From: a virus
Lineage: Duplodnaviria > Caudoviricetes
Virus record (IMG/VR): IMGVR_UViG_3300046794_000491
Location: 1,976 to 65,975 of that record
Reading direction: 5' to 3' (one strand)
DNA length: 64,000 bases
The translations under genes and the position numbers were made by a program. Of this stretch, positions 22,601 through 51,638 are shown piece by piece. Position 1 is the stretch's first letter. Every line of letters starts with the position of its first letter. Under the pieces are notes generated by a model, which was not told the origin of the DNA, searched no databases, and worked only from the letters and a program-made list of their open reading frames with translations.

Positions 22601-22634
22601 GGCGGGTTCCTCCTGGGGCTTCTTGGTGGACCGC

Positions 22635-22664
22635 ACCGTGCCCCCGCCAGGTGGTTAGCGTCCT
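22635..22664 (-). promoter_or_regulatory. Putative late promoter AGGACG-N18-CACGGT
   Basis: Motif match upstream of the protease. Confidence 0.55.
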
Positions 22665-36700: not shown

Positions 36701-39700
36701 TCCGGCGTGAGGACGTAGTACGTGATCGAGCCGCCGCCCACGCGGGGCTTGCTCCGCTCCTCGGCGTACCCGAGCTTGAGCAGTCGGCGGAGCACGTTCG
36801 GGTGGGCTTCGATCTGCCGGCCGTCGGGCGAGCGGACCGAGTTCAGTGCGCTCTCCAGCGCTGCTGCCTGTGCCGTGGTGAGGTTCGGCTCGGCCGGGGC
36901 CTGCTGCGGGGGCGTGGTGGTGTCGTCGCTCGCGGACGGATTGCTGCTGGCCGACTCGTCACCCTGCCCGGTGGGTGTCGCGGGCTTCTCCTTGGCCTGG
37001 CGGTTCTTCGCGCGGCGCTGCTGCTCACGCTCCAGCCCGGCGTGACGCACCACGTCCGCGTCGGTGGCCTCGCCCTTCGAGATCCGCTCGGCGAGTTGGT
37101 CGGTCTCCTCCTTCAGGTCGGCGTTGTTCATGCCGAGGGCGTCCGGCTGCGCCGGGGCGGCCTGCGCACTGGACGACGTCCGAGCCAGGAACGCCTCACG
37201 CTTCGCGGCGAGCTTCTTCGCCCGTTCCGCGTCCCGGGCCTCTGTGGTGGGCCATATCCACTTCACGCGGCCCTTGTCGTCCTGCGAGATGGCAGGCGGC
37301 GCCGGGGTCTTCGGGACCAGGTTCACGTCCCGTGCGGCGACCTGCGCAAGAACGTCTTCCTGATCGCTGGACATGGCGCGCAGTTCGGCGTCAAGGCTGT
37401 CGATCTGCTTGTTGCGCTTGGCGGTGTCCTCCTCGGTCACCGTGGGCTGCGCCTTCAGCCGCATGATCTCGTTGAGGAGGTCCAGTTGCCGGGTGGACTC
37501 GTCGAACTCGGTGGCGAGTTCGAACGGCTTCCCGATCCGGCCGGCGGCCTGCTCGGCGGCTCGCTTCTTGTCCGCGCGCCGGTGCTCGGCGCGGTTGATC
37601 CGCTCGTCGATGTTGGCGATCGAGTTCTCGATGCGGGACAGCGGCAGCGAGCGCGGCTTGCCGTCGTGGTCGATGAGTTCGTGGTCCTCGTAGTCCTGCC
37701 AGGCGCCCGGGACCTGGGGCAGGTCGACGCGGACCGTGTCGTACCACTGGTTGCCGATACTGCGGGTGCGGACGAAGCGGGCGGTGACGTCCAGGCCGCC
37801 GACCTGGCCGATCCGGGTGGCGGGCGCATTCTCGTCGTACGGGCGGCGCATGCCGTCGGCGAACACTGCCCGCAGGGCCGTGTTCAGCGCGCGGCGGGCG
37901 TCGTCGCGGGCGTCTCCGCCCTCGAAGTCGGTGGTGCCGATACGGGCGTTGAAGTCGTCGCCGCGGGTGGTCTTGCGCTTCTCGACGGCCTTCTGGAGTT
38001 GCGCGACGTACTGCTTGGTCCACTCCTCGGCCTGCGCGGAGTCGCGGATGGCCTGCTTGAAACCCTCCTGGGAGCGCCGGTAGGCGTTGAAGCGGCCTCG
38101 CAGCCGGTTCACGAGTGGCTTGAGCTGCGCCTGCGCGATCAGGTGCGGGTCACCGGCGGTGAGGGCGCTGACCTCGTCGGCGTCGAAGGTGACGGGGCCG
38201 ATGTCCTCGACGACGCGCTCGGAGAGCGAGCCGCGCATGAGGGCCCGGATGAACTTCGCCTTGCGGGCGATGGCTTCCCAGAACTTCGCGTCGGTGGACC
38301 GCTCGGTGGCGTACTGGAAGATGGCGACTTCGGCGTTGGCGTTGCCCTGCCGGATGACGCGGCCGTTGCGCTGGTCGACGTCGGCGGGCCGCCATGGGGC
38401 GTCCACGTGGTGCAAGGCAACGGCGCGGAGCTGGACGTTGGTCCCGGTGCCCATCTTGGCCGTGGACCCGAGCAAGACGGAGATCTTGCCGGAGCGGGCG
38501 TCGTTGAACAGGCGGGCCTTGGCCGCGTCGTCCTTCGCCTCGTGGATGAAACGTATCTGCTCGGACGGGATGCCCCGGGCGATCAGGAGAGACTTCAGCT
38601 CGTCGTACGTGGAGAAGTCGGTGTAAGTCTCCTCGTCCTCGCGGGACAGCTCGCTGCCGTCGTCGGCGAGGCCGGCGTCCATTTCGTCGGCTTCGGAGCC
38701 GCTGCCGGCCTTCTTCTTCCGCTTCTTGCTGCGACCCGGGTCCTTCGGCGTGCCCAGGTCGAGGAAGACGATCTGTAGGCCGCCCGGCGTCTCGTGCGGG
38801 GTGGCGTCGGTCTTGCTCGTCGGGAAGACGGCGTCCTTCGTCTCCCCGTAGATCCGCACGACGTTGTCCGCGACCGTCGGCAGCTTGTTGCCGCCGCCGA
38901 GGCTGGGGTCCAGAAGGCGCGGGTCGAGCGCGGCCATGCGGCCGTCGCCGAGGAGCTTGAGGTGGTTGTCCTCCTTCGGGTCAACGTTGCCGCCCTCAAG
39001 GCGCGCTGCGCGGATCCGAAGCCGTGCCTCGTACTCCTCCTGCGCCGGGGACATCGGCATAGTGATCGTGACGGCCTTGCCGCCGACGATGCCCGGCACG
39101 GGAAGGTCGAGGTCTTCAGCCGTCTTGACGTCGGCGAACGAACGCCACAGCCGCAGCAGCTCGGGGACGTTCTGGAACGCCGCCAGGCGCGTCTTCTCCT
39201 TGTAGGAGCCGTCAGGGCTGCGCTCGACCGCGGAGACCATCTGCGCGAACGTGGACGCGAAGTCGTCGAAGTCCAGCATCCCGAGCTCTTTGAGCAGGTC
39301 GGGGCGCAGGTAGCGCATCATCGTGTGGACTTCGGCGATGCTGTTCGCGACGGGGGTGGCCGTCGCGAACGTCACGACGCGGCCGGTGGAGGACCGCTCG
39401 CGCAGCCACTCCAGCTTCATCTCCAGGTCGGAGGCCCGGTTGGAACCGTCGATCGCCGCGACCGAGGACGGCGTGTCGAGGTTTTTGTACATGTGGGCTT
39501 CGTCGACCACGAGGTAGTCGACGCCCATGTCCTCGAAGTGCAGGCCCGCGGCGTCCTTGAGGCCGCTGAGCTTCTTGTCCAGCTTCTCCTCAAGGCTCTT
39601 GAGGCTGGCCTCCATCCGCTTGACCAGGCGGGTGTCGTTGCCCTCGCCGTCAGCGTCCTTCTGCCGGAAGATCTTTTCCCGCAGCCGCTCCACGCGGCGG

Positions 39701-42700
39701 CTGATGTAGTCCTCCTGGACCTCCGGGCGCATCTGGATCGACTCGAACGCGGTCTGCGTCAGGATGATCGCGTCGTAGTCACCGGCCGCAGCGCGGGCGA
39801 TGAACTCGCGCCGGCCCTTGCCCGCCAGGTCTTCGCTGCTCGCGGTGAGGATCCGGTTGTTCGCGACGGACTCGGGGAAGATCTCCGCGAACTCGTGCCG
39901 GAACTGCTCCAGCATGTGCCCCGGCACGACCATCGCGGCCTTCTTCACCAGGCCCAGGCGCCGCAGCTCCATGACACCCATGGCCATCTCAGCCGTCTTG
40001 CCCGCACCGACCTCGTGCGCCAGGAGCACGGACGGCTCATTGACCATCCGGGCGACGGCGGCGTGCTGGTGGGGGTGCGGGTCGAACCACTCGACCAGGC
40101 CGGGGATGGTGCGGCGCTGCCCGTCGTAGGAGCGCGGCGCCATCGAGTTGAAGTTGTCGTTGTAGTAGCGCTTGTGCTTCTCGGCGCGGTCGGAGTCGGC
40201 CCACAGCCAGTCCGTGAACGCCTCCCTGAGGAGGGAGGCCTTGGCCTGAGCGTCCTCGGTGGCGTCCTTGTCGTAGACGCTCTTGGCGTTCTCGCCGTGG
40301 CCGTCCTTCTTGGTGACGACGATCTTGCGGTTGGTGAGGATCGCCTCGGCGATCTCCAGAGCGGTGTAGCCCTTCGCGCTCCACGTGTGCGCGGTGCGCT
40401 CCGCGATGCTCTTCTTCGCACCGTCCGGGGCGTCCACCGCCCACAGGGCGCCGCCCTGCCACGACACCTTGATCCGCTGGTCGTTGAAGGTCTCGCGGAG
40501 GAACTGTTCGACCGGCTCACGGCCGATCCAGGAGGCGCCCATCGGGGCGGCGATTTCACCGGTGGACAGGTCGGGCGGGACGACCCGCTCAAGGTGCTCG
40601 ACGTTCAGGTCGTAACGGCTGTCGTCGGCCGCGGCGTGGCGGGCCTCGTCGAGCTTCTGGCGGACGTTCCCGGACAGGTAGTCCGCGGCCGTGACGAGCT
40701 TGCCGTCCGGGGCCTGGAACGCCATCGGGTACTCGACGCCGGTGTCCGGGTCGACGGAGCGGGCCGTCAGCAGTCGCGCGATGGCCGTGTCGGCGTCGGT
40801 TCGCATGACGCGGGCGAGGCCGTCGGCGGTCAGCCGGCCGTCGGTCTCCAGCACGATCGCGAGAGCGTCCTGCGGGTCGTCCGCGTACTTCGCGATCTCC
40901 CGGTACGTGCCGAGTCGCTTGCTGAAGATCGGGGCCTTGGTGGTCTTGCCGGTGGTGTCGTCGTACTCGTCGAGCGGCGTGATGTTCGCCATCGTCGGGT
41001 CGTTGGTGAACAGGCCGCCGCGCGCCGCCTTCTTGCGGTACGTCTTCTCAACCTTCTCCCCGGTGTCCGGGTCGACGGCGGTGCGCTTCGACCACGTGAA
41101 CCGGTTGATGGCGCCGAACTTGGAGTGGTACGCGTCGTACTGCTTGTTGAGCGCCTCGCGCAGCCGCTCGATCAGGGACTCGTCGGCGTCCTTGCGGTTC
41201 TCCTCCGAGAGGAGGGACTGGAACGTGTCGCGGATCGCGAGGAGCTGCCGGGCCTCGTTCGCCTGCGTCTTGAAGACGGGGAAGGGGTGCACCATGCCGT
41301 CGCGGACCTGCGTGAAGGTCCCGTCCGGTTCGGCCTGCACGTGCCCGTCGACCCGGGAGGAGCCGGGCGGCAGAAGCGTGACCCTGCTGCGGCCCTCCGT
41401 GTCGGGCTTGTAGGCGAGGCCTGCCGCCTTCGCCTCCTCGACGGTCCGCTTCAAGACTCGCTGGAGGTTGGCGATGGTCTTGCCGTCGCCGTCCACGCGC
41501 AGCTCGTTGTCACGGTTCATGCCGTGGCCGACCGCGAGCCTGCCGAGAACCTGCTGCGGGTTGTCGTGGAAGTAGCTGTTGTAGAAGACAGGCGGCTCGG
41601 CCTGCTCCGGCGGCGTGTCCGCCTTGGGCGGGTTCTGCCCCGGCAGGGCGTACGTGGGCAGGGAGTGCACCCACATCGGCGGGTCGTTCTGCGTCCGCTC
41701 CGACGGCCGCTTGACCTCACCCTTGCGGTTGCGGCCCGATGTGAACGACTTGCTCTTGTCGCGGCGCCGGAAGATCAGAAGGTCTGTCATCACCGACGTG
41801 CCCGCGGTGCGCTGGTGCGCGCCGGACGGCAGACGGATCGCGCCGACGAGCTCGGCCTTTTCCGCCATCTCCATACGGGCGGCTTCGCTGCGCCCGCCGT
41901 GGCCGTCCATCGTCAGCGCGGACGTCACGACCGAGACCAGGCCGCCACCACGGGTCAGGTCCAGGGACTTGAGGATGAAGTGGTTGTGGATGGAGTGGCC
42001 ACCCTTGTTGTGCACCAGGTCGGGCACCTTGTACCGGCCGAACGGCACGTTGCCGACCGCCGCATCGAAGGTGCCGTTGGGGGCGCGGGTGTCACCGAAA
42101 GACTCATGCCGGACTTCGGCGTGCGGGTAGAGGGCCTTCGCGATGCCCGCGGTGATCGAGTCGACCTCGACACCGGTCATGTGTGTGCCGTCGGGCGCGT
42201 AGCCGATGAAGTTGCCGACGCCGGATCCGGGCTCCAGCACACTGCCGGCGTCGAATCCGAGGTCGGTCAGGGCCGACCACATCTGCTGCACGATCTGCGG
42301 GTCGGTGTAGTGCGCGTTCAGGGTGTTCGCGCGGGCGTCGTCCCACTCGGCATCGGACAGCAGGCTCCGCAGCCGCTTCGCGAGCGGCTGGAACTGCGCA
42401 TCCGGCTGCGGCTTGAAGATCTGGGGGACCGCGCCCCACCCGGAGTACCGGGCAAGTTCCTGCTGCTCGGCCCCGGTCGCGGGACGGTTCTCGTCCTGGA
42501 GCCGGCGCAGGATCTCAATGGCGGCGATGTTCGCCTTGGCCCGGTTGACCGGGCTCGACGGAACGAGGGTCTTCCCGTCGGCGGGCGGCTCGTAGGCCGG
42601 AGCAGTCGCCTGCTGCTCCGGCGTGCCGAACGCTACGGGAGCGGAGGCAGCTCCACCCGCGGCATGTCCTTCGTCTCCGTCCCCGGATCCTTCGGCATCC

Positions 42701-45700
42701 CGTACACCATGTCCTGAAGCACCCGCTCCCGGGCCCGCATCCGGACCGACTTCAGCTCGCGAGCCCGCGCCACCGCGTCCGTCCCCTCCCGCAGCGGAGG
42801 AGCCCACTCCTCCGTCAGATCCTCGATCTGCTGCACGATCTCGTCCGACCGCTCCCGGGCGAACTCCTCGAACGCCTTGTCCGTCGGGAACCGATCCACT
42901 TCCCTGGCCCGGTACGTCTTCCAGAACGTCCGAACGAGATCCACGTACGACACTGTCATTGCTCCTCTTGTGCTGTTCGGACAGGGCCTGTCGAGCGACG
43001 CTCACGTTCTCACGCGCCAGGCGCAGGAACTCGGCCGCATGGGCGTGGTCGCCGCCGCGGCCGCGCAGCGCGCGCTGCATGCCGTCGAGCGCGTCCTGGA
43101 ACCGGCGGATTGCCTCCGACGGCTCGATGTCACCGCGCTTCAGCGCGTCCACGGCGTCTCCGGCAGGCGCCGCTAGGTCGAGCGCAGCGGGCGCACCGCG
43201 CAGCTCGGTCAGACTGTTGACGACCGGGCCGAGCTGCTGCTCTGCCAGATCGAGCGCTTCCACGATGTGGTGGCTGGCGGCGGTGACGGCCAGGGTGGGG
43301 CGCTGCTCGCCCGGGGCGTCGTCCTGCGGCTCCGTAGGCACGTCGGACGCGGCAGGGGGAGCGGGCGGGCGCTCGCTGTCGTGCTCGCGCACCAGGTCCG
43401 CGAGGGCCGCCTCCTCGGTGAGGAACGGCTTCTTGGAGCTGTAGCGGGTGCCGTGACCGAGCCGGTTCCACGTCCAGCGACCCGCAGAGCCCTGGAGCGT
43501 GGCGTCGTCCTGGTTGTCGCCATCGACGGCGGCGGGGCGGTGGCCCGAATCGTTGCGCGCGCCGAGCTGGACGCGGGAGAGCTGCTGTGCGTACGCCTGT
43601 CCGTCGCGGCGCTGGGCCTCGGCGAGGATCGCTGTCTTCTCAGCCTGGGCGCGGGCCTTCTTCGCCTGGTCGCCGGAGGACAGGGTGTCAGACCAATCCT
43701 GGTCGGCCTTCGCGTAGGCGGCGTCGAGGTCCTCGCGCGACACCTGCGACCAATCCCGCTGCTCGGGCGCCGCCTGCGGGGCTGGCTGCGGGGCGTCGGG
43801 GTTCGGGGTGTTGGCGCGGTTGCCCGCGTATGGGGTGCCGTCGGGGCGGGTGATGTCCTTGAGCGCGTGGGAGTGGGTGCCCTGCTCGGCGCGCACGAGC
43901 ACCGACCCGGAGTCCTTGTTCACGGCCATGACCGAGCCGACGCCGTCAGGAGAGTTGACCTCGTCGCCGGTGTTGGGGAAGTCTCCGTCCGGCGTTGCCT
44001 GGGGGGCGTTCGGCGCCGCCGCGGCCGGAGCAGCGGCCGGAGTAGCCGCAGGGGTCGGGGCGGGCTTGTTCTGCTCCTCCTGCCGCTTCTCGTACTCCTT
44101 CGCGAAGTACGAGTCCGCGTGCCCGTGCTCGATGTCGAACCGGCCGCGGACATCGTCCATCCGGTTCCCGAATTCCTTGCGCCACCCGCCGATACGGTTC
44201 GGGTTGCGGCGGAACAGCTCGGGGTCCCACCAGTCCACCGGCTGGCCGGGCCGCGACGGCTCTTCCACCTCGCGACCGATCATCAGCGCGAACCGGCTGG
44301 CGTCCTGCCGCGACTTGAAGCCCTGTCCTGCGCTGCCGGTGAAGCCGATGCCGCGGCCGTCGTAGGCGCGGACGACATTGAAGTTCTCCGGGCCGCGCTC
44401 GATGACAGCGAACGCGAAATGGTCCGCCAGAGTGATCTTCAGGTCGCGGTTGTTCGCGAACTGGCTCAGCCGCTCCTTGGTGTGCGCGTCGAACGAGGGG
44501 TCGCCGCCGTTCTTCCAGTACTCGCGCAGCTCACCGGTGGTGCTCGGCTTCCTCGTGCGTCCGTCAGGGGCGGTGTTGGTTCCAGGACCGACGTGGCCGA
44601 CGCCGATGTTCTGCGCGGGCGCGCCGGTGGTGTTGGCGATGTTCTGCGCCGCCTGCACGAGGGGGTTGGGCCGCTCGGCCGGCGCCGGGGCCGGGGGCGC
44701 GGCGGGGGCGGGCGTCGCAGGCGCGGGGGTGCGCTTCGCGGCAGCGCCCTCACGCTTCTTCGCGGCCTTGTCCGCGAAGGCCTTCTTCGCCTCCTCGCTG
44801 GCCTGGCGCACCATGGCCTGGCCCTCGGTGGACTCCAGGCGCTTGTGGAAGTCCGGGGCGTCCCAGTCGAAGGGCTTGCCGTCGCTCTGCGCGGCTTCCA
44901 GGCGGTTGGCGAAGTCGAGGGCCTCGCCCTTGCGGTCCGACATGGCCAGGCGGACGCCGCTGTTGGAGACGATGACGGCGTACCCGGACTTGCGCTTGCC
45001 GTCCTTCTCCACGGTCATCTTCGCCACGACGAACGTGCCGCCGCGGGAGAGCTGCGGCTTCTCCAGCTTGTCGAACAGGGCGGCGGTCTCCTTGCGGTGC
45101 CGCTCCTGCTTGGCCTTGTCGGAGGTGACCGGGACCAGGGTGCCGCTCTGCCAATGCTGATGAACGTCAGCGAGGGTGTTGAAGCGGCGCTGGCCCTTCC
45201 CGGCGGCCGACTTGCTGCGCGAGCCCGTGGTGCCCGGCTGCTGGCCGGGGGTCTTGTAGACGGTCTCGCGAGTGCCGTCGGGGCGCCACGCGCGCGGGAC
45301 AAGCGGCTGATCGTTGGCGAGCTTCCTCTTCGGCGCCGGGATCGGCTTCTTGCCGTGGCTATCGAACCGCTCGTAGGCGAAGTTCAGCGCGTCGGCGAGG
45401 TTCTGCGCGTAGCGCGCGACATCGTCCTGGCCGTCGTTGTGGGCGAGCTCCGCGAGGTGCTCGGCGTCGTCCGCGGACCACGACAGCTTGTCGACCTCGG
45501 TCGGGTCGAAATGATCATTCTTGTCGTCGCCGACTTCGAACGGTGCCTCGTCGCCGCTGAGCCAGCCGAACAGCTCCTCGTACAGGTCGCGCGCTTCGGC
45601 GTTGTTCCAGTCCTCAGGCCAGACGCCTTCGAGGTCGCCGAAGTAGTCGACGCTGAGGTCACGCAGCGCACGGCGGGCATGGCTGGTGTCCCAGAACTGG

Positions 45701-46455
45701 CTGTTGTGGTCGTTCACCTTGGGGCCGGCGGCGCGCAGCGCGTCACCGTTGCCCATCACGTGCTGGTTGTGGATGGCCGCGCCACGGTGGTCGGCGCCGC
45801 CTCCGGTTATGGACAGCAGGTCGGGGAAAGAGCGCTGCGGCGCGTTGCCGCGCTGCGTGGCATTGCCTACGCGGTCGCCGTTCTCGTCCTTCGGGTTGGC
45901 CATGACGCGGCCCTGCGGGACCAGCAGGGGGTCATCGTCCTGGTTCGGGTCGTCGGGGCCCGCGCCGTGGTCCTGGCCCTCGATGTCCTGCCCGATCGGC
46001 TTGCCCTCGTCGTCATGCGTGTGAGGCTCGTCGGGGGTAAAGCCGTTGTCGCCCGGGTCGTTCTCGCCGTGGTCCTCGCCGTTGTCGTCCTTCGCCGGGT
46101 CGTGCGCGGCGAATCCGTTGCCGCGGTTCTCGTCGCCGAAGCGCCGCTCGTCCTCGTCGCGGACCTTCTGTTTGCTCTTGGTCGGAGCGGAGCCGTCCGG
46201 GCGGGCGACCATGGTCAGCCGGGCCGCGTTGATGCGTGAGCGCTCGTGCGTGGCCAGGTTCTCCACCAGCACATCGCGGCCGCCGAGAGCGCGCAGCACG
46301 CGGGCCATGCCGCCGCCCCACATGCGGGCGATACCGCCCGTCTCCACAAAGCGGCCCTTGGAATCGCGGGGGTGCAGATCCGGGTTCCAAGTGCGACGCA
46401 GCCTCTTGGTTTCGAGGCTGGCGAGGATGCGGTCTGCGGCGCTCATGATCGGCAT
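24751..46455 (-). CDS. Giant polyvalent protein (~7,230 aa): N6-adenine MTase + SNF2 helicase (DarB-like) + UvrD-like SF1 helicase + repeats
   Basis: VLEPGSGVGNF / GNVPF; AHEVGAGKT / VDEAH / TATP / QRNGR; ALAGTGKS / DEAQD / VGDSNQAIYGFRGA / TAHKSKGLE; N-terminal WNPDLHPRDSKGRF; start ATG 46455 fits the leaderless promoter. Confidence 0.9.
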   Translation of the reverse strand: MPIMSAADRILASLETKRLRRTWNPDLHPRDSKGRFVETGGIARMWGGGMARVLRALGGRDVLVENLATHERSRINAARLTMVARPDGSAPTKSKQKVRDEDERRFGDENRGNGFAAHDPAKDDNGEDHGENDPGDNGFTPDEPHTHDDEGKPIGQDIEGQDHGAGPDDPNQDDDPLLVPQGRVMANPKDENGDRVGNATQRGNAPQRSFPDLLSITGGGADHRGAAIHNQHVMGNGDALRAAGPKVNDHNSQFWDTSHARRALRDLSVDYFGDLEGVWPEDWNNAEARDLYEELFGWLSGDEAPFEVGDDKNDHFDPTEVDKLSWSADDAEHLAELAHNDGQDDVARYAQNLADALNFAYERFDSHGKKPIPAPKRKLANDQPLVPRAWRPDGTRETVYKTPGQQPGTTGSRSKSAAGKGQRRFNTLADVHQHWQSGTLVPVTSDKAKQERHRKETAALFDKLEKPQLSRGGTFVVAKMTVEKDGKRKSGYAVIVSNSGVRLAMSDRKGEALDFANRLEAAQSDGKPFDWDAPDFHKRLESTEGQAMVRQASEEAKKAFADKAAKKREGAAAKRTPAPATPAPAAPPAPAPAERPNPLVQAAQNIANTTGAPAQNIGVGHVGPGTNTAPDGRTRKPSTTGELREYWKNGGDPSFDAHTKERLSQFANNRDLKITLADHFAFAVIERGPENFNVVRAYDGRGIGFTGSAGQGFKSRQDASRFALMIGREVEEPSRPGQPVDWWDPELFRRNPNRIGGWRKEFGNRMDDVRGRFDIEHGHADSYFAKEYEKRQEEQNKPAPTPAATPAAAPAAAAPNAPQATPDGDFPNTGDEVNSPDGVGSVMAVNKDSGSVLVRAEQGTHSHALKDITRPDGTPYAGNRANTPNPDAPQPAPQAAPEQRDWSQVSREDLDAAYAKADQDWSDTLSSGDQAKKARAQAEKTAILAEAQRRDGQAYAQQLSRVQLGARNDSGHRPAAVDGDNQDDATLQGSAGRWTWNRLGHGTRYSSKKPFLTEEAALADLVREHDSERPPAPPAASDVPTEPQDDAPGEQRPTLAVTAASHHIVEALDLAEQQLGPVVNSLTELRGAPAALDLAAPAGDAVDALKRGDIEPSEAIRRFQDALDGMQRALRGRGGDHAHAAEFLRLARENVSVARQALSEQHKRSNDSVVRGSRSDVLEDVPGQGSGSVPDGQGVRGVRPGAVGRDRAADRGSDGGVGSSAAGGDGRGGAGSRAEVGPDAGPGAGASGHGVRDAEGSGDGDEGHAAGGAASAPVAFGTPEQQATAPAYEPPADGKTLVPSSPVNRAKANIAAIEILRRLQDENRPATGAEQQELARYSGWGAVPQIFKPQPDAQFQPLAKRLRSLLSDAEWDDARANTLNAHYTDPQIVQQMWSALTDLGFDAGSVLEPGSGVGNFIGYAPDGTHMTGVEVDSITAGIAKALYPHAEVRHESFGDTRAPNGTFDAAVGNVPFGRYKVPDLVHNKGGHSIHNHFILKSLDLTRGGGLVSVVTSALTMDGHGGRSEAARMEMAEKAELVGAIRLPSGAHQRTAGTSVMTDLLIFRRRDKSKSFTSGRNRKGEVKRPSERTQNDPPMWVHSLPTYALPGQNPPKADTPPEQAEPPVFYNSYFHDNPQQVLGRLAVGHGMNRDNELRVDGDGKTIANLQRVLKRTVEEAKAAGLAYKPDTEGRSRVTLLPPGSSRVDGHVQAEPDGTFTQVRDGMVHPFPVFKTQANEARQLLAIRDTFQSLLSEENRKDADESLIERLREALNKQYDAYHSKFGAINRFTWSKRTAVDPDTGEKVEKTYRKKAARGGLFTNDPTMANITPLDEYDDTTGKTTKAPIFSKRLGTYREIAKYADDPQDALAIVLETDGRLTADGLARVMRTDADTAIARLLTARSVDPDTGVEYPMAFQAPDGKLVTAADYLSGNVRQKLDEARHAAADDSRYDLNVEHLERVVPPDLSTGEIAAPMGASWIGREPVEQFLRETFNDQRIKVSWQGGALWAVDAPDGAKKSIAERTAHTWSAKGYTALEIAEAILTNRKIVVTKKDGHGENAKSVYDKDATEDAQAKASLLREAFTDWLWADSDRAEKHKRYYNDNFNSMAPRSYDGQRRTIPGLVEWFDPHPHQHAAVARMVNEPSVLLAHEVGAGKTAEMAMGVMELRRLGLVKKAAMVVPGHMLEQFRHEFAEIFPESVANNRILTASSEDLAGKGRREFIARAAAGDYDAIILTQTAFESIQMRPEVQEDYISRRVERLREKIFRQKDADGEGNDTRLVKRMEASLKSLEEKLDKKLSGLKDAAGLHFEDMGVDYLVVDEAHMYKNLDTPSSVAAIDGSNRASDLEMKLEWLRERSSTGRVVTFATATPVANSIAEVHTMMRYLRPDLLKELGMLDFDDFASTFAQMVSAVERSPDGSYKEKTRLAAFQNVPELLRLWRSFADVKTAEDLDLPVPGIVGGKAVTITMPMSPAQEEYEARLRIRAARLEGGNVDPKEDNHLKLLGDGRMAALDPRLLDPSLGGGNKLPTVADNVVRIYGETKDAVFPTSKTDATPHETPGGLQIVFLDLGTPKDPGRSKKRKKKAGSGSEADEMDAGLADDGSELSREDEETYTDFSTYDELKSLLIARGIPSEQIRFIHEAKDDAAKARLFNDARSGKISVLLGSTAKMGTGTNVQLRAVALHHVDAPWRPADVDQRNGRVIRQGNANAEVAIFQYATERSTDAKFWEAIARKAKFIRALMRGSLSERVVEDIGPVTFDADEVSALTAGDPHLIAQAQLKPLVNRLRGRFNAYRRSQEGFKQAIRDSAQAEEWTKQYVAQLQKAVEKRKTTRGDDFNARIGTTDFEGGDARDDARRALNTALRAVFADGMRRPYDENAPATRIGQVGGLDVTARFVRTRSIGNQWYDTVRVDLPQVPGAWQDYEDHELIDHDGKPRSLPLSRIENSIANIDERINRAEHRRADKKRAAEQAAGRIGKPFELATEFDESTRQLDLLNEIMRLKAQPTVTEEDTAKRNKQIDSLDAELRAMSSDQEDVLAQVAARDVNLVPKTPAPPAISQDDKGRVKWIWPTTEARDAERAKKLAAKREAFLARTSSSAQAAPAQPDALGMNNADLKEETDQLAERISKGEATDADVVRHAGLEREQQRRAKNRQAKEKPATPTGQGDESASSNPSASDDTTTPPQQAPAEPNLTTAQAAALESALNSVRSPDGRQIEAHPNVLRRLLKLGYAEERSKPRVGGGSITYYVLTPEGERRAKSIGEEREKARAARLAELDAADEAPEGESQTDTTPSPSQDSPEPVQRPAAPANGIPGASPQQPPAPRTTPPQEDRPRPARNQADTVRPFANAREWSAGMATVEAAQGQVTRAAETTWGRDVPGTARSLRDNVFAAIAAQEAGDFDDAAGSLVAAQDDAQALRSSLDDVDRPGMEDPLSNFMRTADDYLARHAVSVEKRRREDAQQGSIEREAQEQFRRSLMGDQASASEAPEAPAAGSVAPSTAAGWRDGDFQPGDTVHFRNPNAMNALQKGEFVRSTGPGAALLRNPQGAEREVQYIDVVGRTRNGEFQQNPQSPTPQANRQDQQPTPPTPEPAAAPAASTGGTAPQAPRPQRTAPSDVRPVPATPPADMSADQLGEELDSLDERIESLKGATDPVDLAYRFRLEQRQFELDEEERRRWKPTVEHDENGKAIPRKRGDVIRDRLAGYGLNDAETRGLAHRVEDLPAAKPGGYSDDEWARIDAEASANESYPPTEEQGIIIEGAARRGLNMAVMALAGTGKSSTLKMLSHRMPGKRIVYLAFNRSVANEAREAQARGEYAQNLTASTANSYAAKVADKRLNNRLPSNKRDGFKKLSAQQIADRMRWYDTVKAGNRDLSPGGAATVAERMIRTWAKSADAEMGPQHITGAKTKQEARDLFNAVKPLADRMWANLSDPTRGDADEDLTMDFDYIVKMWALGGYKIDADTLFWDEAQDVNPVMEGVVRGAIDQGVQVVAVGDSNQAIYGFRGAADALGKLPVDARATLTQSFRFGPAVADVGNRFLRLLGTRMRLKGFDRKKSRLGNIKPGDETMVIARTNAGVALAAVEALAAGRRVAVSGGVKDLQEFVQAARALANGEHTDHAELARFNGMAYDDILDAVKDDPDLSQLKSLFQLLEKHPDEIDQLMESGAQSARSENVGGRVWVTLDWNDPKAGQLKRWLGDAKTNGVGKLLYDPATRRYYYEPGKRNVPWKDARTGRSGEHRVDNKLSLEDAQKKIDAHLAKLYPQEEAEGGRLVPETQEHDVLVTTAHKSKGLESERVRVADDFRGPERDDNGNIKWDTMPDDEALRVAYVSVTRATDVLDSGSLGWVFEAVNDEDPTQPPTGEYRRDWVPDDFKTGDRINFQGEDGTFHTGEVARVDAPGLIARYEDDGQRREQDISVAQVQRLNGQKQPLLPVASDGELNQAIAEGRYPSAGGDAPVKLDPEQVRNDLADLRGDAIAPETGDANAPQAPAAADTPQPADTEPTPTAPEADNAPAAGTGAWAEGDEVITPQDEQGTIQHVADNGVALVATDIGLRPVALSELKRPGQDMSEAEAVRQAETRGRRAEEDAWLAAAATSEGAPIKTMDGYRLANLDVDAGHGAIMRDGEMVAWIRARGPKGEATWLAQDARGGRPMTPAAAVSEGDGEDGIYHSIERAAWSAAYGADSSVDPSRGQGVTRPEDQRGPIMGTLLTEAQFREFQDLAKRWESSDDADLRHVGTKYYAGPVSAGQMRHAADAVDSEADALDLSTADGRRREKLYRGLAKGLRSQARSLEASATMAPPGEHDPFSRRGMQPDAPESGDGARGDADVPEWADDLGNGIWVDKPKKGVSGPRNIYVDGRIEGLLGRDKDTDEYYWWRPGGQRGEGRYDTPEEAARGFARDMQDRDLPSLSNREGDAEAGPSDSADGSSEGDNSTPNDDVSDGGQGQEERDQTDERDDSEDNNDDRDGRRRRRNRLGNGAGGAGGPGLPGVPHLSGPGDGNRGTAPGAGGSGGNDRNGGGRAPHASGADTNSGPDENGGRFLSLPELAEHWSQVERLVTPEGEKLLFGPDPKARTAELAGQTTQVRIDEVHVPHTWYKGRYIGNIRANGQKLKEWEAQLPFPGAGVHDTPRFSSRNAALAYLVLASEAHDNYRDVSRISPEQAREFRFMSVDDHREEDQAALAAYSPEGKERLAALKQLMDSLHNGQSPSDNVADDLANAFTGAQWLYENFPRPDTTEGVTGLRSSLGRVMERSSFALDTISPEHPLAHNHARQRDEDAAAYMHGQLAKVKKEDAETVAPEGLRNGDLVEISGLADVSFGPERRKEQGYIVGEPIKTTIDIGRKGGPVSGWRITVSDTPFIPPGRLAKRRTFLIPDKNKGITRFARAEDTGLPTDEIIRVGRPGQPEGTPDAGRAVPTGDAPASAAASQYGINSAHPLGERRAGTVDGRRIPTPEEMEQYEVGEDRAIDDEGERALFGSPERMQELAAQGFVPEPRIRSDKDGEVWRNGRLIGNLREPNRHGFYTEEPPQLWEGELPLATYLHEPRFTTRDQAIAYLVLRDMEQGEPDLSIVHPDIAWDFSHTNPGLGFPPEEEGLRGLESLNDSPAAMERYRKIRALVDALGRGETVSGNVADDLDHLHDELRWLDSTHYKHQPADLKHKYILGPGWLADQIREYLDVLRPEDPRAMHHETSKARAAKQFLSTLLDEGGRDNSRKVPVTDLRAGDIVHLAGRVTDRYPGATDSRTGYVVGEPSKATFTVNKKRHKGLRITVADSPVGAHKLDGNTFIIPVGDSVERLASVDDITLPVDEHTYGRQVGETPVATPERTAGTPSGEARTTAQNAEEPRPDSDTRTNAPAADAQRSTPETGSSAADRPAPAARPEPETAQQAAADQAEPEAPAEPEPVGGRPAEWVKVSDIAMGDLVRIDGITKRGTSRTLAGYVVGGPELVPTEQARKVQDMYRVLIADTPDGKGARGSVWVAQDATAARATGDASDTGSLQTGADSDVLTGRISGRVANDADGNGLFPGSTVTDDDGREGVVVGATAGTAQVQFGDDRTDDAHAPSSLTVTDGGAARPTGWTPDGHRVDTGNVVGDRDGNMLGTVEEVDGDTATVATPQGMEPMSIRDLRVLGGSDSSGPADEKVAHVEPVTAGEIQPGDVLVRGNRTVKVKTAQHSGQTSYLGLEDTTSGDTNTLAVPSDTEMQRAAAADGGAPDLGPEDAPLANDPITTHEPAPAVDPVTGPTVDPELAPEERDAIADRGTAPSSDPDAEQAAARIGRDLPVTPDQASALADDLREGADTSTPEGRAAKRAADHLDQAAGQAGAADDGGMTTEARYLQTGDVIEAPVNGETSRLLVVEANRSEDGNTVDLQLANADGRFIHQTVGARVPFRPVPHDGNDVGGGVSEQSDRRIVPATGLKPGDHLVFGPGTNGSDWFTRKVQSVDVSDGRVSVQLEGLAGGPSSTRHFQILGGRGGAAELTTVMDKERPAAAWFASNQARLTGEAPNTPAPDSAPSGRPEPGTVGSVGVGDTIALPDETNPDTMGAYRVVDVADAPGGIRILTVEDGDGQRSERTLTATDPLYQLPEPEAPAAGPDTEARDPNQGLDPEAFQADYADAVARAVIGNAIQGTSTPGSIHQLREQIAEQLTLQAMRSLMRKLRQDFVNVVDGTGITGDARERMLAELRKTAMQTRTDAVKAAVRTLDDLEPLDGESPEDMARRAADLLRLIPESLRNRPKPEPDSAVPDDVPGDGGAASRIDDEVSSHVGDAVGDALAAADDGPLTPERRAAIVARLAQRMADSRNDTAGRIAANLPEGQRPGLMAGIVAALMQIARRIVELVAAFLKALAAGVKATGRAIARFGKGLGRRIRSWPETRRLRRMASAARSLPRPGDGMSLAEKVAHWAQLLPAPGRFGQVARRSRWYRSAARTTLAAGQLPQVQDGVRWTMDRAADRGPGRQALRHLAALRAAGADVDADLIARLTAAAPELGDDPHGTVRHARRYADRTEARLRDLRAVAAGTNAPDLAPEIAAARLEAQHAQQEAERLQQAYTAALPSAVRDTLSQVREMGPGGRNRLTLSHSSDAAATRALTDAAQYVPREWLADRASRFMTAVSGDAGAYDADSGTATIADLGDGGRATAAHALLAHLQRNYPDLLAAQEAFGFTRTHTGRPGARRSTLDVLLARLFGGQADQVTDEQIAARGLATMFSGDWYRDDDLRAFLLGLLATR
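42633..42959 (-). CDS. Nested same-strand gene, TnpV-like protein (108 aa)
   Basis: Different frame inside the giant ORF; AAGAGGAG before ATG; globular helical sequence FWKTY...FEEF...IVQQIEDL...RMRARERVLQD. Confidence 0.7.
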   Translation of the reverse strand: MTVSYVDLVRTFWKTYRAREVDRFPTDKAFEEFARERSDEIVQQIEDLTEEWAPPLREGTDAVARARELKSVRMRARERVLQDMVYGMPKDPGTETKDMPRVELPPLP

Positions 46456-46462
46456 GCGGCGG

Positions 46463-46492
46463 ACCATGCACACCGGGGATGGTTAACGTCGC
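46463..46492 (-). promoter_or_regulatory. Putative late promoter GCGACG-N18-CATGGT, leaderless
   Basis: Followed by CCGCCGC-ATG, the same 7-mer as at 49947. Confidence 0.65.
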
Positions 46493-46526: not shown

Positions 46527-46739
46527 CTACATGGTCTCGGTGAGGATGTGCAGCAGGAACCAGATGGAGAATCCGCTCCAGCCGACCGTGAATGCGGCTC
46601 TGCCGAGTTTCGAGGTGCGGGTACGGAACAGTCTTCGTACGTTCTCGCTCAAGGTGTCGTCGTCTTTCCGATTGATCAGCGCCCACGTTTCGTACAGGGC
46701 GAATGCGGCAGTCCACGCGGACCAGATCATCCAGCTCAC
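46527..46739 (-). CDS. Small two-TM membrane protein (70 aa)
   Basis: GTGA overlap with the nuclease stop; two Trp-rich hydrophobic segments around DTLSE. Confidence 0.65.
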   Translation of the reverse strand: MSWMIWSAWTAAFALYETWALINRKDDDTLSENVRRLFRTRTSKLGRAAFTVGWSGFSIWFLLHILTETM

Positions 46740-47110
46740 GGCGTTGTCTCCTTGGTCTCCTCGGGGGGTGCAGGCAGGGGGCGGGCGCCGTGCCCGTCGT
46801 AGGGGGCAGCAATGCCCGCGTCGATCAGGTCCGTGTTCAGGCACGCGCCGTCGGCGGCCGAGACCGTGGCGAGCCATCGGCCGTACTTCTCCCGGGCGTG
46901 GGTCTCCACCACCAGCTCGGGGCCGTGCTCGGTGAGCCATTCGGCCACCCACGCCTTCGCGGCCTTGCCCTCCGGGGCGTTCTTCTCGGGGGCGTTCAGG
47001 CCGTTGAGGCGGAGCCGCTGCCGGGTGCGGATCGTGAAGCCGAGGTCGAGGTCAACGTCGAGGGTGTCGCCATCGACCACGCGAAGGACTGTGGCGGGGT
47101 AGGTGTTCAC
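46736..47110 (-). CDS. Thermonuclease (SNase-like)
   Basis: RVVDGDT, RLRLNGLNAPE, EKYGRWLA, LNTDLIDAG. Confidence 0.92.
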   Translation of the reverse strand: MNTYPATVLRVVDGDTLDVDLDLGFTIRTRQRLRLNGLNAPEKNAPEGKAAKAWVAEWLTEHGPELVVETHAREKYGRWLATVSAADGACLNTDLIDAGIAAPYDGHGARPLPAPPEETKETTP

Positions 47111-49575: not shown

Positions 49576-49576
49576 G

Positions 49577-49939
49577 TCACTCCTCCCCGCCGCACACCCA
49601 CACCGCGACGGCAAGCAGGGCGGCGAACAGCAGGGACCACGGGTTCACGGAGTACGCCACCGCGGTGATCAGCATCAGGCCGGCGGAGAGAGCGCCGTAG
49701 CCGCCTACCAGCCGGATCAGGCGTGGCACGGGCGGTGTGGTCTGAAGGACTGCGCCGCCTGCCGTGGCGGTGAGGAGCCCGATCAGGAGCAGGGCCACGG
49801 CCGGTGATCCCATGGACAGGGCTCCCAGCAGGCCGACCGTTCCGGCGCCGACCAGGAAGAGGCCGATCAGGTCGCGGGCGAGGCGTCGCCGCGGTGCCCG
49901 ATGGCTGGGGAGCGGTGGGGGCTGCGTTGGAGGATTCAC
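49577..49939 (-). CDS. Membrane protein (about 4 TM)
   Basis: 120 aa hydrophobic, leaderless GTG, directly upstream of portal. Confidence 0.7.
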   Translation of the reverse strand: MNPPTQPPPLPSHRAPRRRLARDLIGLFLVGAGTVGLLGALSMGSPAVALLLIGLLTATAGGAVLQTTPPVPRLIRLVGGYGALSAGLMLITAVAYSVNPWSLLFAALLAVAVWVCGGEE

Positions 49940-50771: not shown

Positions 50772-51638
50772 TCAGAGCTTGGCCACGCTGACGAACCCCA
50801 GTGAGCGAAGGCCTTCGGCCTGGCACAGCCGGTCCGAGGCGCCCCCGATCTCGGTCTGCAAGAGCTGGTAGTCAGCGCCGTGCGTGGCTCCCCATGCCAT
50901 AGCGGCGCGCCACAGGGCGCGGCCGTGGCCGTGGCCGCGGTGCTCGGGCAGAACGCCGAAGTACTGCGGCAGGAGCCGGGTTGCCCCGGCCGAGTCGGGC
51001 ATGGTCTCCATGGGGCCGATCGCCCCTACGACGCGAGCTCCGTCGGTGGCAGCCAGGACAGGGCCGACGGAGCCGGTCTGCATCTGGCTGTGGAGGAATG
51101 CGAACCCGTCGCTGGTCAGCCGGTCGGCGAACGCGGCGAACGTCTCCCGTGTCGGCTGTGGCAGGACGTCCACCGCGCGGATGGGGCCGGGCTGGTCCTC
51201 GATCCTGGGGTGGGTGAATGGCTTCAACTGGACTCGGGTGACCGTGGTCCCGGCCGGTGGCGTCTCGTCGGGGCCGTGGAAGGTGACCACCCGGGCGGTG
51301 GAGACGCGATGGCCGGCGGTGAGCTTGGCGGCCAGGCTTGCGGCTTCTTCAGCGGCGGGCCCGTAGGTGTAGACCGTGAGGGTGCCGCTGCCGCGGGTGC
51401 GCAGCGTGGGGATCAGAGTCCGGGCGGTGGTGTGCTCGATGTGCTCGGGCAACACCGTTTCATCCTTCGTCTCGGTCCAGCGCTGATCCTTGTCGTAGGG
51501 CAGGAACGTGCCGGTTCCGGCGACGCGCTGCACGTCATCGAACAGGGCCGGGGCCAGGGCGTCGGGGTGGACGGGGCCGATCGTCGGCACGTACGGCACC
51601 TGGATCACGGGGTGCAACCAGTCCCACAGCAAACGCAT
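50772..51638 (-). CDS. GNAT-family acetyltransferase
   Basis: FGVLPEHRGHGHGRALW acetyl-CoA motif A in the C-terminal domain. Confidence 0.85.
   Translation of the reverse strand: MRLLWDWLHPVIQVPYVPTIGPVHPDALAPALFDDVQRVAGTGTFLPYDKDQRWTETKDETVLPEHIEHTTARTLIPTLRTRGSGTLTVYTYGPAAEEAASLAAKLTAGHRVSTARVVTFHGPDETPPAGTTVTRVQLKPFTHPRIEDQPGPIRAVDVLPQPTRETFAAFADRLTSDGFAFLHSQMQTGSVGPVLAATDGARVVGAIGPMETMPDSAGATRLLPQYFGVLPEHRGHGHGRALWRAAMAWGATHGADYQLLQTEIGGASDRLCQAEGLRSLGFVSVAKL

What the first reader, a model, noticed from the sequence alone, without database searches (positions are those of the whole stretch)
42633..42959. A complete gene nested in another frame on the same strand inside the giant gene
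Seen: a 108-codon ORF with AAGAGGAG before its ATG and a globular amphipathic sequence. Over exactly this interval the giant frame turns into G/R/D/V-rich text (VRGVRPGAVGRDRAADRGSDGG), the pattern expected from off-frame reading of a real gene, yet it stays open. It lies immediately before the MTase domain. From recollection it resembles TnpV-like small proteins found next to MTase-helicase genes. Inference: true dual coding, possibly a co-produced partner or inhibitor of the MTase-helicase that standard annotation would miss.
Basis: partly seen in the sequence, partly recalled or inferred. Interest (0 to 1): 0.8.

Follow-up and report, generated by a model that had tools for sequence, protein, structure and literature searches.

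The report
TnpV gene hidden inside giant gene
A small, conserved TnpV-like gene is written in a second reading frame inside a 7,240-codon anti-restriction gene of a Streptomyces phage-plasmid, and both frames are kept readable by selection in relatives from two bacterial phyla, so one stretch of DNA very probably encodes two proteins.

Summary
Window 42633-42959 (minus strand) is a 108-codon ORF with AAGAGGAG five bases before its ATG. It lies out of frame inside a 7,240-codon ORF (24751-46473, minus): a DarB-like methyltransferase-SNF2-UvrD polyvalent gene between the portal and head-protease genes.

- **Codon signal:** this is the only sustained stretch of the giant ORF where codon-position GC switches frame, and it switches to the nested frame.
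- **Family:** the small protein is a distant TnpV (PF14198) relative. Alone it misses Pfam's cut-off, but the profile-profile match is 97%.
- **Actinobacteria:** in 21 of 21 loci the giant frame has no stop across tnpV, against about 25% expected. None of 646 stop-prone codon contexts ends in T, against 6.2% elsewhere.
- **Low-GC elements:** 8 of 13 classical tnpV copies are embedded the same way, with 0 stops where chance gives at most 0.014. The other 5 are standalone copies with 3-14 stops.
- **Natural variants:** they are silent for tnpV inside the overlap and silent for the giant gene outside it.
- **Binding:** a complex model supports, but does not show, TnpV binding the methyltransferase module (0.72; best control 0.00).

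Translation of either frame was not tested. My literature searches found no description of this arrangement.

The parts
42633..42959 (-). Embedded tnpV-like gene (108 codons plus TAG stop). The same bases, read in the giant frame (-1 relative to tnpV), encode a G/A/D/S/V/R-rich linker at giant residues about 1172-1281.
   Evidence: family link
42964..42971 (-). Shine-Dalgarno sequence AAGAGGAG, 5 nt upstream of the tnpV ATG. An SD-like site before an ATG or GTG is present in the homologous loci.
24751..46473 (-). Giant ORF of 7240 codons: a DarB-like polyvalent protein gene.
42960..46473 (-). N-terminal module of the giant protein (about 1171 aa). It has no Pfam or PHROG hit and no stop codon before the overlap.
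40771..42630 (-). Giant residues 1282-1901: the conserved region after the overlap plus the N6-adenine methyltransferase core (VLEPGSGxGNF and GNVPFG motifs). This was chain 1 of the complex model.
38344..40071 (-). SNF2-related and Helicase_C domains of the giant protein.
   Evidence: coordinates converted by me from residues 854-1429 of the piece starting at 42630
34432..34635 (-). UvrD-type helicase N-terminal domain hit in the C-terminal half of the giant protein.
   Evidence: coordinates converted by me
47107..49614 (-). Portal protein gene with a head-morphogenesis (MuF-like) C-terminal region. It lies upstream of the giant gene.
20336..22636 (-). Head maturation protease gene, downstream of the giant gene. 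The major head protein gene is at 18868-20229.

Best explanation
The interval is a genuine dual-coding region. One long mRNA carries a 7240-codon gene for a DarB-like polyvalent protein: an N-terminal module, a linker, an N6-adenine methyltransferase, an SNF2 helicase and a UvrD helicase. Its position in the head-gene block suggests the protein is packaged into the virion.

Inside that gene, one base out of register, sits a complete tnpV-family gene with its own Shine-Dalgarno sequence, ATG and TAG. Ribosomes that start at the giant gene's start read the 324 bases as a glycine/arginine/aspartate-rich linker, presumably disordered, which joins the N-terminal module to the methyltransferase. Ribosomes that start at the internal site read the same bases as a 108-aa TnpV-like protein.

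Selection acts on the amino-acid sequence of TnpV. On the giant frame it acts only to keep the frame free of stop codons.

Shown here: both frames are preserved beyond chance in about 29 loci from two phyla, and the signals for independent initiation are conserved. Inferred: both products are made. Supported only by a model: TnpV binds the methyltransferase module encoded just downstream, as an auxiliary or regulatory subunit made from the same mRNA.
For: - **Frame switch in the window:** codon-position GC switches to the nested frame in only one sustained stretch of the 21.7 kb ORF.
- **No other way to make the methyltransferase part:** the N-terminal module has no stop. There is also no ATG, GTG or TTG in the giant frame between the tnpV stop and the conserved methyltransferase N-terminal motif. 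In other actinobacterial loci the conserved 'RFRPxxQxDLAP' motif starts 2-40 codons after the tnpV stop.
- **Actinobacterial loci:** 21 of 21 have 0 stops in the giant (+2) frame across tnpV, against 75 stops in total in the +1 frame. In 19 of the 21 the +2 frame continues as an ORF to the end of the locus.
- **Chance expectation:** 38 of 149 real-gene windows are open, and resampling gives 0.25. Per-locus values are 0.01-0.68.
- **Stop avoidance:** 0 of 646 stop-prone contexts carry a third-position T, against 100 of 1626 elsewhere.
- **Low-GC test:** of 13 classical-tnpV loci, 8 (38-54% GC) have 0 stops in +2 and 11-17 in +1, where resampling gives 0-0.014. The other 5, which sit in transposon or resistance contexts, have 3-14 stops in +2.
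- **Hosts of the embedded copies:** the six tested are polyvalent proteins with an N6_Mtase or Eco57I-type methyltransferase, and with LPD11, LPD25 or SNF2/ResIII domains in some.
- **Independent initiation:** an SD-like site plus an ATG or GTG is present in every locus.
- **Selection follows tnpV:**
  - Close pairs differ mostly at tnpV codon position 3, for example 17/17/28 differences at positions 1/2/3.
  - In 6 of 8 pairs, omega is 0.37-0.88 in the tnpV frame and 0.92-1.69 in the giant frame.
  - In metagenome contigs, 7 of 8 variants inside the overlap fall at tnpV position 3. Six of these are silent for tnpV and all 7 change the giant protein. Outside the overlap, 6 of 7 variants are silent for the giant gene. 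No indels were seen in 4 runs.
- **Family:**
- **Binding:** Complex prediction scored 0.72 (median of 3 runs) with a best control of 0.00 across 3 controls. That mark was reached by 58 of 80 solved complexes and 2 of 110 mismatched pairs. Partner pLDDT was at least 80 and at least 55% of contacts were shared between runs. My own alignments were used, so these counts hold only roughly.
Against: - **No expression data:** there is no evidence that either product is translated.
- **Pfam threshold missed:** P0001 alone fails Pfam's TnpV threshold (14 bits against 27), and none of 10 other family members tested reached it.
- **Weak dN/dS support:** dN/dS in overlapping frames is biased. Two distant pairs (L004-L005 and L004-L012) give the opposite order, 1.5 and 1.2 for tnpV against 0.96 and 0.92 for the giant frame.
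- **Non-independent loci:** many loci are related by descent. By my own grouping there are about 11 actinobacterial lineages. The product of the highest per-lineage chance values is about 1e-5 (my arithmetic).
- **Against an obligate methyltransferase partner:** 5 of 13 classical tnpV copies stand alone beside serine-recombinase or resistance genes with no methyltransferase gene adjacent. In low-GC hosts tnpV lies 340-1240 residues upstream of the methyltransferase domain rather than next to it.
- **Interface misses the conserved tail:** the strongly conserved C-terminal EPGTExxDMP tail of the actinobacterial branch is mostly outside the best-run interface.
Confidence: 0.85

Rival explanations
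1. Annotation or composition artefact. The 'giant ORF' is really three adjacent genes (N-terminal gene, tnpV, methyltransferase-helicase). The alternative frame over tnpV is open only because high-GC DNA rarely contains stop codons.
For: For a single high-GC sequence, chance openness is about 0.25. PGAP annotates several plasmid homologues as a separate 'TnpV protein' followed by a helicase gene.
Against: The N-terminal module has no stop, and the methyltransferase part has no start codon after tnpV. The frame is open in 21 of 21 actinobacterial loci, and 0 of 646 stop-prone contexts carry a T. At 38-54% GC, 8 loci are open where chance is at most 0.014, while standalone copies carry 3-14 stops. 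The PGAP helicase starts in L008 and L020 fall at a TTG inside the conserved RFRPxxQxDLAP motif.
Confidence: 0.03
2. Only the giant protein is made. The tnpV frame is an untranslated relic of a gene that the growing polyvalent gene swallowed.
For: No translation data exist. Gene callers usually omit it: 5 of the 40 listed plasmid hits lie under a helicase CDS only.
Against: The tnpV ORF, its SD-like site and its start codon are intact in all embedded copies, including low-GC ones where a 113-119 codon open alternative frame is itself improbable. The protein sequence is conserved across phyla. Natural variants are silent for tnpV in 6 of 8 cases inside the overlap. Codon-position GC follows tnpV, not the giant frame.
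Confidence: 0.05
3. Recoding rather than independent initiation. TnpV is joined to the methyltransferase-helicase by a programmed -1 frameshift near the tnpV 3' end (the giant frame is -1 relative to tnpV). Alternatively, the N-terminal module is joined to TnpV by a +1 shift.
For: The frame relation, with the helicase in -1 of tnpV, is the same in every locus examined.
Against: No strict X XXY YYZ heptamer occurs in the tnpV frame in 18 of 21 actinobacterial loci. The 3 exceptions are at non-homologous places. A -1 shift model does not need the giant frame to be open across the whole of tnpV, yet it is. The tnpV frame has a stop 1-40 codons before its start in most loci, which leaves little room for a +1 entry. 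No in-frame TnpV-helicase fusion was found among longer proteins: 3 hits of 281-345 aa only, and that search is weak by its own statement.
Confidence: 0.04
4. Dual coding is real, but TnpV does not act on the methyltransferase. It is instead a DNA-binding, Xis-like or regulatory protein of the mobile element, as postulated for Tn4451. It rides in the linker only for compact, linked inheritance.
For: A passage of PMC3158075 says TnpV of Tn4451 was postulated to act in excision because of a likeness to lambda Xis. Five of 13 classical copies are standalone beside recombinase or resistance genes. In low-GC hosts tnpV is far from the methyltransferase domain.
Against: The complex model passes with all controls at 0.00. 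Every embedded-copy host that I scanned for domains (the window and six low-GC loci) carries the methyltransferase.
Confidence: 0.35

Closest known systems
Rz/Rz1 spanin genes of phage lambda (recalled, not tested here)
   Same: A complete small gene is embedded out of frame, on the same strand, inside a larger gene. The two products act together.
   Different: There is no homology. Here the host gene is 7240 codons, and the overlapped part of the host protein is a low-complexity linker rather than a functional domain. The pair is conserved across Actinomycetota and Bacillota.
comS embedded in the srfA non-ribosomal peptide synthetase gene of Bacillus subtilis (recalled)
   Same: A small protein gene with its own start sits out of frame inside a giant multi-module gene.
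   Different: comS has 46 codons and is lineage-restricted. As far as I recall, its product does not bind the host protein. Here the embedded gene belongs to a widespread family that also exists as a free gene.
TnpV of Tn4451/Tn4453 (Pfam PF14198)
   Same: The two are homologous at profile level (97.1%, E 5.4e-11). They share the small size and the C-terminal 'AEE.V..E.(I/V)Y' motif.
   Different: The actinobacterial branch lacks the first ~25 residues of classical TnpV and adds an EPGTExxDMP tail. P0001 misses the Pfam cut-off. Tn4451-type copies are free-standing, with stops in the other frames.
DarB of phage P1 and the methylase-helicase dyad of polyvalent proteins (Iyer et al. 2017, PMC5512222; passages read)
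   Same: The giant protein matches phrog_10089 'DarB-like antirestriction' at 1266 bits. It has the methyltransferase plus SNF2 dyad and, as that paper describes for actinomycete giants, an added UvrD helicase. It sits among head genes.
   Different: That paper's text has 0 occurrences of 'TnpV', 'overlapping' or 'frameshift', so the embedded gene is not part of the described architecture.
IS3-family orfA/orfAB and phage tail-chaperone -1 frameshifting (recalled)
   Same: Two frames are used on one mRNA, with the downstream frame at -1.
   Different: There is no conserved slippery site. The embedded gene has its own start and stop, and the long frame spans it completely.

Membership tests
TnpV (Pfam PF14198) | Score at or above Pfam's gathering cut-off (27 bits) | tested here: not met
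   P0001 scores 14 bits, E 0.051. Ten other family members score at most 20.8 bits. The best of 67 members reaches E 2e-7.
TnpV (Pfam PF14198) | Profile-level homology to classical TnpV proteins | tested here: met
   hhalign of A2 (67 sequences) against A5 (12 classical TnpV) gives probability 97.1%, E 5.4e-11 over 83 columns. 29 of 67 members hit PF14198 at E<=1. PGAP labels 16 of the 40 listed plasmid homologues 'TnpV protein'.
TnpV (Pfam PF14198) | N-terminal 'TYxxxGDYLIP' segment of classical TnpV | tested here: not met
   The alignment starts at column 26 of the classical profile. The actinobacterial proteins begin at the 'YG..A..YW.TY' segment.
TnpV (Pfam PF14198) | Small protein of about 100-120 aa ending in AEE.V..E.(I/V)Y | tested here: met
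   P0001 has 108 aa and carries 'ARERVLQDMVY' at residues 76-86, aligned to 'AEEIVMADLIY'.
DarB-like methyltransferase-SNF2 polyvalent proteins | N6-adenine methyltransferase fused to an SNF2/SF2 helicase in one polypeptide | tested here: met
   Pfam hits to Eco57I, SNF2-rel_dom, ResIII and Helicase_C. phrog_10089 scores 1266 bits.
DarB-like methyltransferase-SNF2 polyvalent proteins | Virion-associated, and protects incoming DNA from restriction | not testable with these tools
   Only context is available: the gene lies between the portal and head protease/major head protein genes.
Same-strand embedded overlapping gene pair | Both frames open in diverged homologues beyond chance | tested here: met
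Same-strand embedded overlapping gene pair | Embedded gene has its own ribosome-binding site and start codon | tested here: met
Same-strand embedded overlapping gene pair | Both products detected | not testable with these tools
   No RNA holder was listed. No ribosome-profiling or proteome data were available.
Programmed -1 ribosomal frameshift | Conserved slippery heptamer in the upstream frame | tested here: not met
   No strict heptamer in 18 of 21 loci; the 3 others are not homologous in position.

The most novel reading that the evidence does not exclude
tnpV is an ancient gene-within-a-gene of anti-restriction polyvalent proteins in phages, phage-plasmids and conjugative plasmids of at least two phyla. 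Its product is a small subunit that docks on the methyltransferase module as that module emerges from ribosomes translating the same mRNA. The overlap would exist to enforce assembly in cis and unbreakable genetic linkage. The free-standing TnpV of Tn4451-type transposons would then be an escaped copy. Current annotation pipelines would also be systematically mis-calling either tnpV or the 5' end of the helicase gene in many of these elements.
Probability: 0.3. Interest if true: 0.85.

Novelty: new variant of a known kind. Interest (0 to 1): 0.74.

Why it matters
Long same-strand overlaps in which both frames are demonstrably under selection are rare in bacteria and their mobile elements, and few are conserved beyond one genus.

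- **Breadth:** here about 110 codons are read in two frames in elements from Actinomycetota (about 70% GC) and Bacillota (38-54% GC). A clean internal control exists, because free-standing copies have lost the second frame.
- **A lead on TnpV:** it gives a testable handle on TnpV, a family whose function is unknown. The handle is a predicted docking site on the methyltransferase of DarB-like anti-restriction proteins.
- **Direction of overprinting:** the conserved, folded protein is the embedded one. The new reading is a linker of the giant protein.
- **Annotation:** among the loci examined, pipelines either drop tnpV (L005, L010, L011, L015, L022) or start the helicase gene inside a conserved motif (L008, L020).

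Tried and rejected
- **Direct family scans:** Pfam, NCBIfam and PHROGs scans of P0001 gave nothing significant. NCBIfam holds no model for the family.
- **Solved structures:** a profile search with A2 gave only one chance-level hit, E 0.52.
- **Metagenome contigs:** a scan with A1 matched 102 pattern stretches, none confirmed.
- **Longer proteins:** the search with A3 found 3 proteins of 281-345 aa and no helicase fusion. It is weak by its own statement.
- **Frameshift model:** no conserved slippery heptamer was found.
- **Three-gene model:** I considered whether the upstream gene ends at the TGA of the ATGA at the tnpV start. That TGA is in the third frame, which is open for only 18 codons upstream, so I rejected this.
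- **Internal start for the methyltransferase part:** the only GTG in the giant frame inside the overlap is at 42807. Its GGAGGA abuts it with no spacer, so this is unlikely but not excluded.
- **Expression data:** no RNA holder was listed, so nothing can be said about expression.
- I did not use the look-up of encoding contigs, which is stated to be closed.
- **Literature:**
  - 'TnpV' gave 38 papers. I scanned the 25 listed and opened one for passages.
  - DarB/polyvalent terms gave 28 papers. I opened one for passages.
  - Phage-plasmid/Streptomyces/portal gave 13 papers, listing only.
  - Overlapping-gene terms gave 10 papers, listing only.
  - None describes tnpV inside a helicase or polyvalent gene. 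I did not consult supplements, which are closed, and subscription journals are not covered.

Full report
**1. What is in the window**

On the minus strand there is one ORF of 7240 codons, 24751-46473. Inside it, one base out of register, lies an ORF of 108 codons at 42633-42959 with an ATG start. AAGAGGAG ends five bases before that ATG.

The window has 69.8% GC, and its genes have GC by codon position of about 0.72/0.50/0.91. I scanned the giant ORF in 120-nt windows. The only sustained stretch where its third position is not the GC-richest is 43053-42693, where the values reach about 0.9/0.8/0.4. A few short, weak flags occur elsewhere. Read in the nested frame, the interval gives 0.69/0.44/0.89, the signature of a normal gene of this genome.

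**2. Context**

The record is a virus record.
- **Upstream:** a portal gene with a head-morphogenesis C-terminal region (47107-49614) and a small endonuclease gene (46736-47110).
- **Downstream:** a head maturation protease (20336-22636), the major head protein (18868-20229) and a tape-measure protein (3383-8518).
- **The giant protein after the overlap:** Pfam gives Eco57I-type methyltransferase, SNF2, ResIII, Helicase_C and UvrD hits. phrog_10089 'DarB-like antirestriction' scores 1266 bits.
- **The giant protein before the overlap:** the 1171 residues have no Pfam or PHROG hit.

Close relatives lie on Streptomyces 'plasmids' of about 130 kb that carry phage portal genes, so they are phage-plasmids. 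Passages of Iyer et al. 2017 (PMC5512222) describe the methylase-SF2 helicase dyad of polyvalent proteins, and actinomycete giants that add a UvrD helicase. That text has no occurrence of TnpV, 'overlapping' or 'frameshift'.

**3. Is the giant ORF one gene?**

The N-terminal module has no stop. Between the nested stop and the conserved start of the methyltransferase region (VAFGTPEQQ..., NRAKANIAAIEIL...) there is no ATG, GTG or TTG in the giant frame. In other actinobacterial loci a conserved 'RFRPxxQxDLAP' motif begins 2-40 codons after the tnpV stop, again with no start codon between them. The methyltransferase-helicase can therefore be made only by ribosomes that have read through the overlap in the giant frame.

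**4. Chance or selection?**

For one high-GC sequence, openness of that frame is unremarkable: 38 of 149 108-codon windows of real genes in this window are open in the same relative frame, and synonymous resampling of the TnpV-like protein gives 0.25. The test therefore has to use homologues.

I collected 20 further actinobacterial loci, with 32-94% identity among the eight loci found with the window's protein or its profile:
- Viral contigs: L001-L004 and L012-L014.
- Genome contigs: L006 and L007.
- Plasmids: L005, L008-L011 and L015-L020.

Results:
- In 21 of 21 loci (the window included) the giant-frame (+2) reading of tnpV has no stop, while the +1 frame has 75 stops in total.
- In 19 of the 21 the +2 frame runs on as an ORF to the end of the locus. 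L007 and L018 are truncated remnants.
- Per-locus chance values are 0.01-0.68.
- A stop can arise in +2 only where a tnpV codon ending in T precedes a codon starting with AA, AG or GA. None of 646 such contexts has the T, against 100 of 1626 (6.2%) other contexts.
- The loci are not independent. Grouping them by eye into about 11 lineages and multiplying the highest chance value of each gives about 1e-5 (my arithmetic).

**5. The low-GC control**

The decisive test came from classical TnpV genes in low-GC elements. Thirteen loci were examined.

Eight have zero stops in +2 and 11-17 stops in +1, where resampling gives a chance of 0-0.014 each:
- L021 and L028-L032: gut 'Bacteriophage sp.' records, 41-53% GC.
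- L022: an Enterococcus faecalis plasmid, 38% GC, annotated there only as 'SNF2-related protein'.
- L025: a Cohnella plasmid, 54% GC.

In all eight the +2 frame is part of a long ORF. The six host ORFs scanned (L021, L022, L025, L029, L031, L032) are polyvalent proteins. All six carry an N6_Mtase or Eco57I-type methyltransferase hit. L029 has LPD25, L031 has LPD11, and L022 and L025 have SNF2 or ResIII hits.

The other five loci (L023, L024, L026, L027, L033) have 3-14 stops in +2. Four of them (L023, L024, L026, L027) are free-standing copies beside a serine recombinase, mobilisation genes or resistance genes. The fifth, L033, is an unannotated record whose neighbours are unknown. The second frame is therefore kept only where it is used.

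**6. The nested gene is itself under selection**

- Every locus has an ATG or GTG preceded by an SD-like site, of varying strength. Examples are AAGAGGAG, AGGAGGAG and GAGAGGA in actinobacteria, and GAAAGGAG-like sites in several low-GC loci.
- Close pairs differ most at tnpV codon position 3. WIN-L002 has 17/17/28 differences at positions 1/2/3, WIN-L003 has 15/14/31 and L002-L003 has 10/13/22.
- In 6 of 8 pairs, Nei-Gojobori omega is 0.37-0.88 in the tnpV frame and 0.92-1.69 in the giant frame. The two L004 pairs reverse this order. Such estimates are biased in overlaps.
- Contigs from four metagenome runs that were not flagged as a possible source show no insertions or deletions over 42300-43300. 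Of 8 substitutions inside the overlap, 7 are at tnpV position 3: 6 are silent for tnpV and all 7 change the giant-frame residue. Of 7 substitutions outside the overlap, 6 are silent for the giant gene. Constraint thus switches frame at the borders of the nested gene.

**7. What the small protein is**

- A profile search of 1.84 billion representatives found 92 proteins at E<=1e-3. Most have 95-125 aa and match end to end.
- 29 of 67 members hit Pfam TnpV at E<=1, the best at 2e-7. P0001 alone scores 14 bits against a cut-off of 27.
- PGAP names many plasmid homologues 'TnpV protein'. Of the 40 listed hits, 16 are labelled that way, 18 are 'hypothetical', 5 lie under a helicase CDS and 1 record is unannotated.
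- The ESM Atlas lists a 'TnpV protein family' cluster at 0.90.
- hhalign of the actinobacterial family against 12 classical TnpVs gives 97.1%, E 5.4e-11 over 83 columns.

The actinobacterial branch lacks the first ~25 residues of classical TnpV and adds a conserved EPGTExxDMP tail. I file it as a divergent branch of the TnpV family, not as a member by Pfam's own threshold.

**8. Variation of the host gene**

The part of the giant ORF upstream of tnpV varies widely:
- About 25 residues in Paenarthrobacter plasmids (L008, L009) and in L020.
- About 430 residues in Micromonospora (L010, L017). This extension looks primase-like to me by eye; I did not test that.
- 580-1171 residues in the Streptomyces phage-plasmids.

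tnpV thus marks a junction where different N-terminal modules are joined to the conserved methyltransferase-helicase part. Annotation is inconsistent. L005, L010, L011, L015 and L022 have only the giant CDS. L008, L017 and L020 have tnpV plus a helicase CDS, and in L008 and L020 the helicase start falls at a TTG inside the conserved motif.

**9. Mechanism**

*Shown:* two frames are preserved, and independent initiation signals are conserved.

*Inferred:* the giant frame is translated through the overlap as a flexible linker, and TnpV is translated from the internal site on the same mRNA.

I tested a frameshift link and did not support it. No strict slippery heptamer occurs in 18 of 21 loci, and the three found are not homologous in position.

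For function, I used the one complex job on TnpV (alignment A1) with giant residues 1282-1901 (alignment A4):
- The score was 0.72 (median of three runs: 0.68, 0.72, 0.74), and the best of three controls was 0.00.
- That mark was reached by 58 of 80 solved complexes and 2 of 110 mismatched pairs.
- Partner pLDDT was at least 80, and the runs shared at least 55% of contacts.
- The counts hold only roughly, because my own alignments were used.

The confident contacts on the methyltransferase side are residues 182-186, 205-210, 227-228 and 290-295, plus patches at 427-568. In sequence they flank the GNVPFG motif at 193-198. This supports binding but does not show it, and it says nothing on whether TnpV activates, inhibits or merely accompanies the enzyme.

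Three observations argue against an obligate partnership:
- Free-standing tnpV copies exist with no methyltransferase gene adjacent.
- In low-GC hosts tnpV lies far from the methyltransferase domain.
- The conserved C-terminal tail is mostly outside the modelled interface.

The only functional statement I found in print is that TnpV of Tn4451 was postulated to act in excision, by likeness to lambda Xis (passage of PMC3158075).

**10. Novelty**

Embedded same-strand genes are a known kind of arrangement; Rz/Rz1 and comS in srfA are examples I recall. I found no description of tnpV inside a polyvalent or helicase gene in the four literature searches or in the passages read. Supplements and subscription journals were not covered.

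What is unusual here:
- The length of the overlap, about 110 codons.
- Its conservation across two phyla.
- The direction of overprinting: the old, conserved protein is the embedded one, and the giant protein's reading is a linker.
- The model-supported contact between the two products.

**11. Limits**

- There is no evidence of translation.
- No structure could be predicted, because the tool was off.
- Lineage independence was judged by eye.

Noticed in passing
window 42633-42635, and the tnpV stop codons of L001-L020, L021, L022, L025 and L028-L032: The tnpV stop is TAG in 20 of 21 actinobacterial loci; the exception is the decayed L007, with TGA. It is TAA or TAG in all 8 embedded low-GC copies, while 2 of 5 free-standing copies use TGA. 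As I recall, TGA is the usual stop in high-GC actinobacteria. In at least eight of the actinobacterial loci that I translated by hand, the giant frame reads a valine codon GTA across the TAG (my own reading). No stop-codon constraint from the giant frame explains this.
   Followed up: partly
L007 5836-6635 (Actinacidiphila soli contig): This is a decayed remnant: only 126 residues of the giant protein still match. Here the end of the upstream module ('VRENLGVARQALADQ') is in the same frame as tnpV, and the giant frame has stops on both sides of tnpV. The tnpV ORF itself is intact.
   Followed up: partly
L008 5387, L020 4318, L017 3252-3923: PGAP starts the helicase CDS at a TTG inside the conserved RFRPxxQxDLAP motif in L008 and L020. 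In Micromonospora maris pVMKU (L017), two opposite-strand 'hypothetical' CDSs are annotated over what is an open N-terminal extension of about 430 codons. That extension is homologous to one annotated as part of the helicase in L010.
   Followed up: partly
window 20336-22636 (minus): The head maturation protease ORF (766 aa) also matches RNA-ligase PHROGs over residues about 193-379 and an unknown-function PHROG at residues 405-475. This is an unusual fusion for a prohead protease.
   Followed up: no
window 50772-53049 (minus): A radical-SAM protein gene (51934-53049) and an acetyltransferase-like gene (50772-51638) lie just upstream of the portal region.
   Followed up: no
window 17252-18514 (minus): An exonuclease-family gene (phrog_284, E 1e-58) sits inside the structural block, next to the major head protein gene.
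   Followed up: no
window 41800-43800: The stretch is held almost completely (0.61-1.00 of sampled words) by 24 rhizosphere-metagenome runs from 24 study codes, 11 of them flagged as possible sources of this DNA. This phage-plasmid or close strains of it therefore recur in that kind of sample.
   Followed up: no
L019 550-1011 (Streptomyces sp. NBC_00212 plasmid): A 'Pycsar system effector family protein' gene is annotated about 3 kb upstream of the tnpV/helicase module on this plasmid.
   Followed up: no
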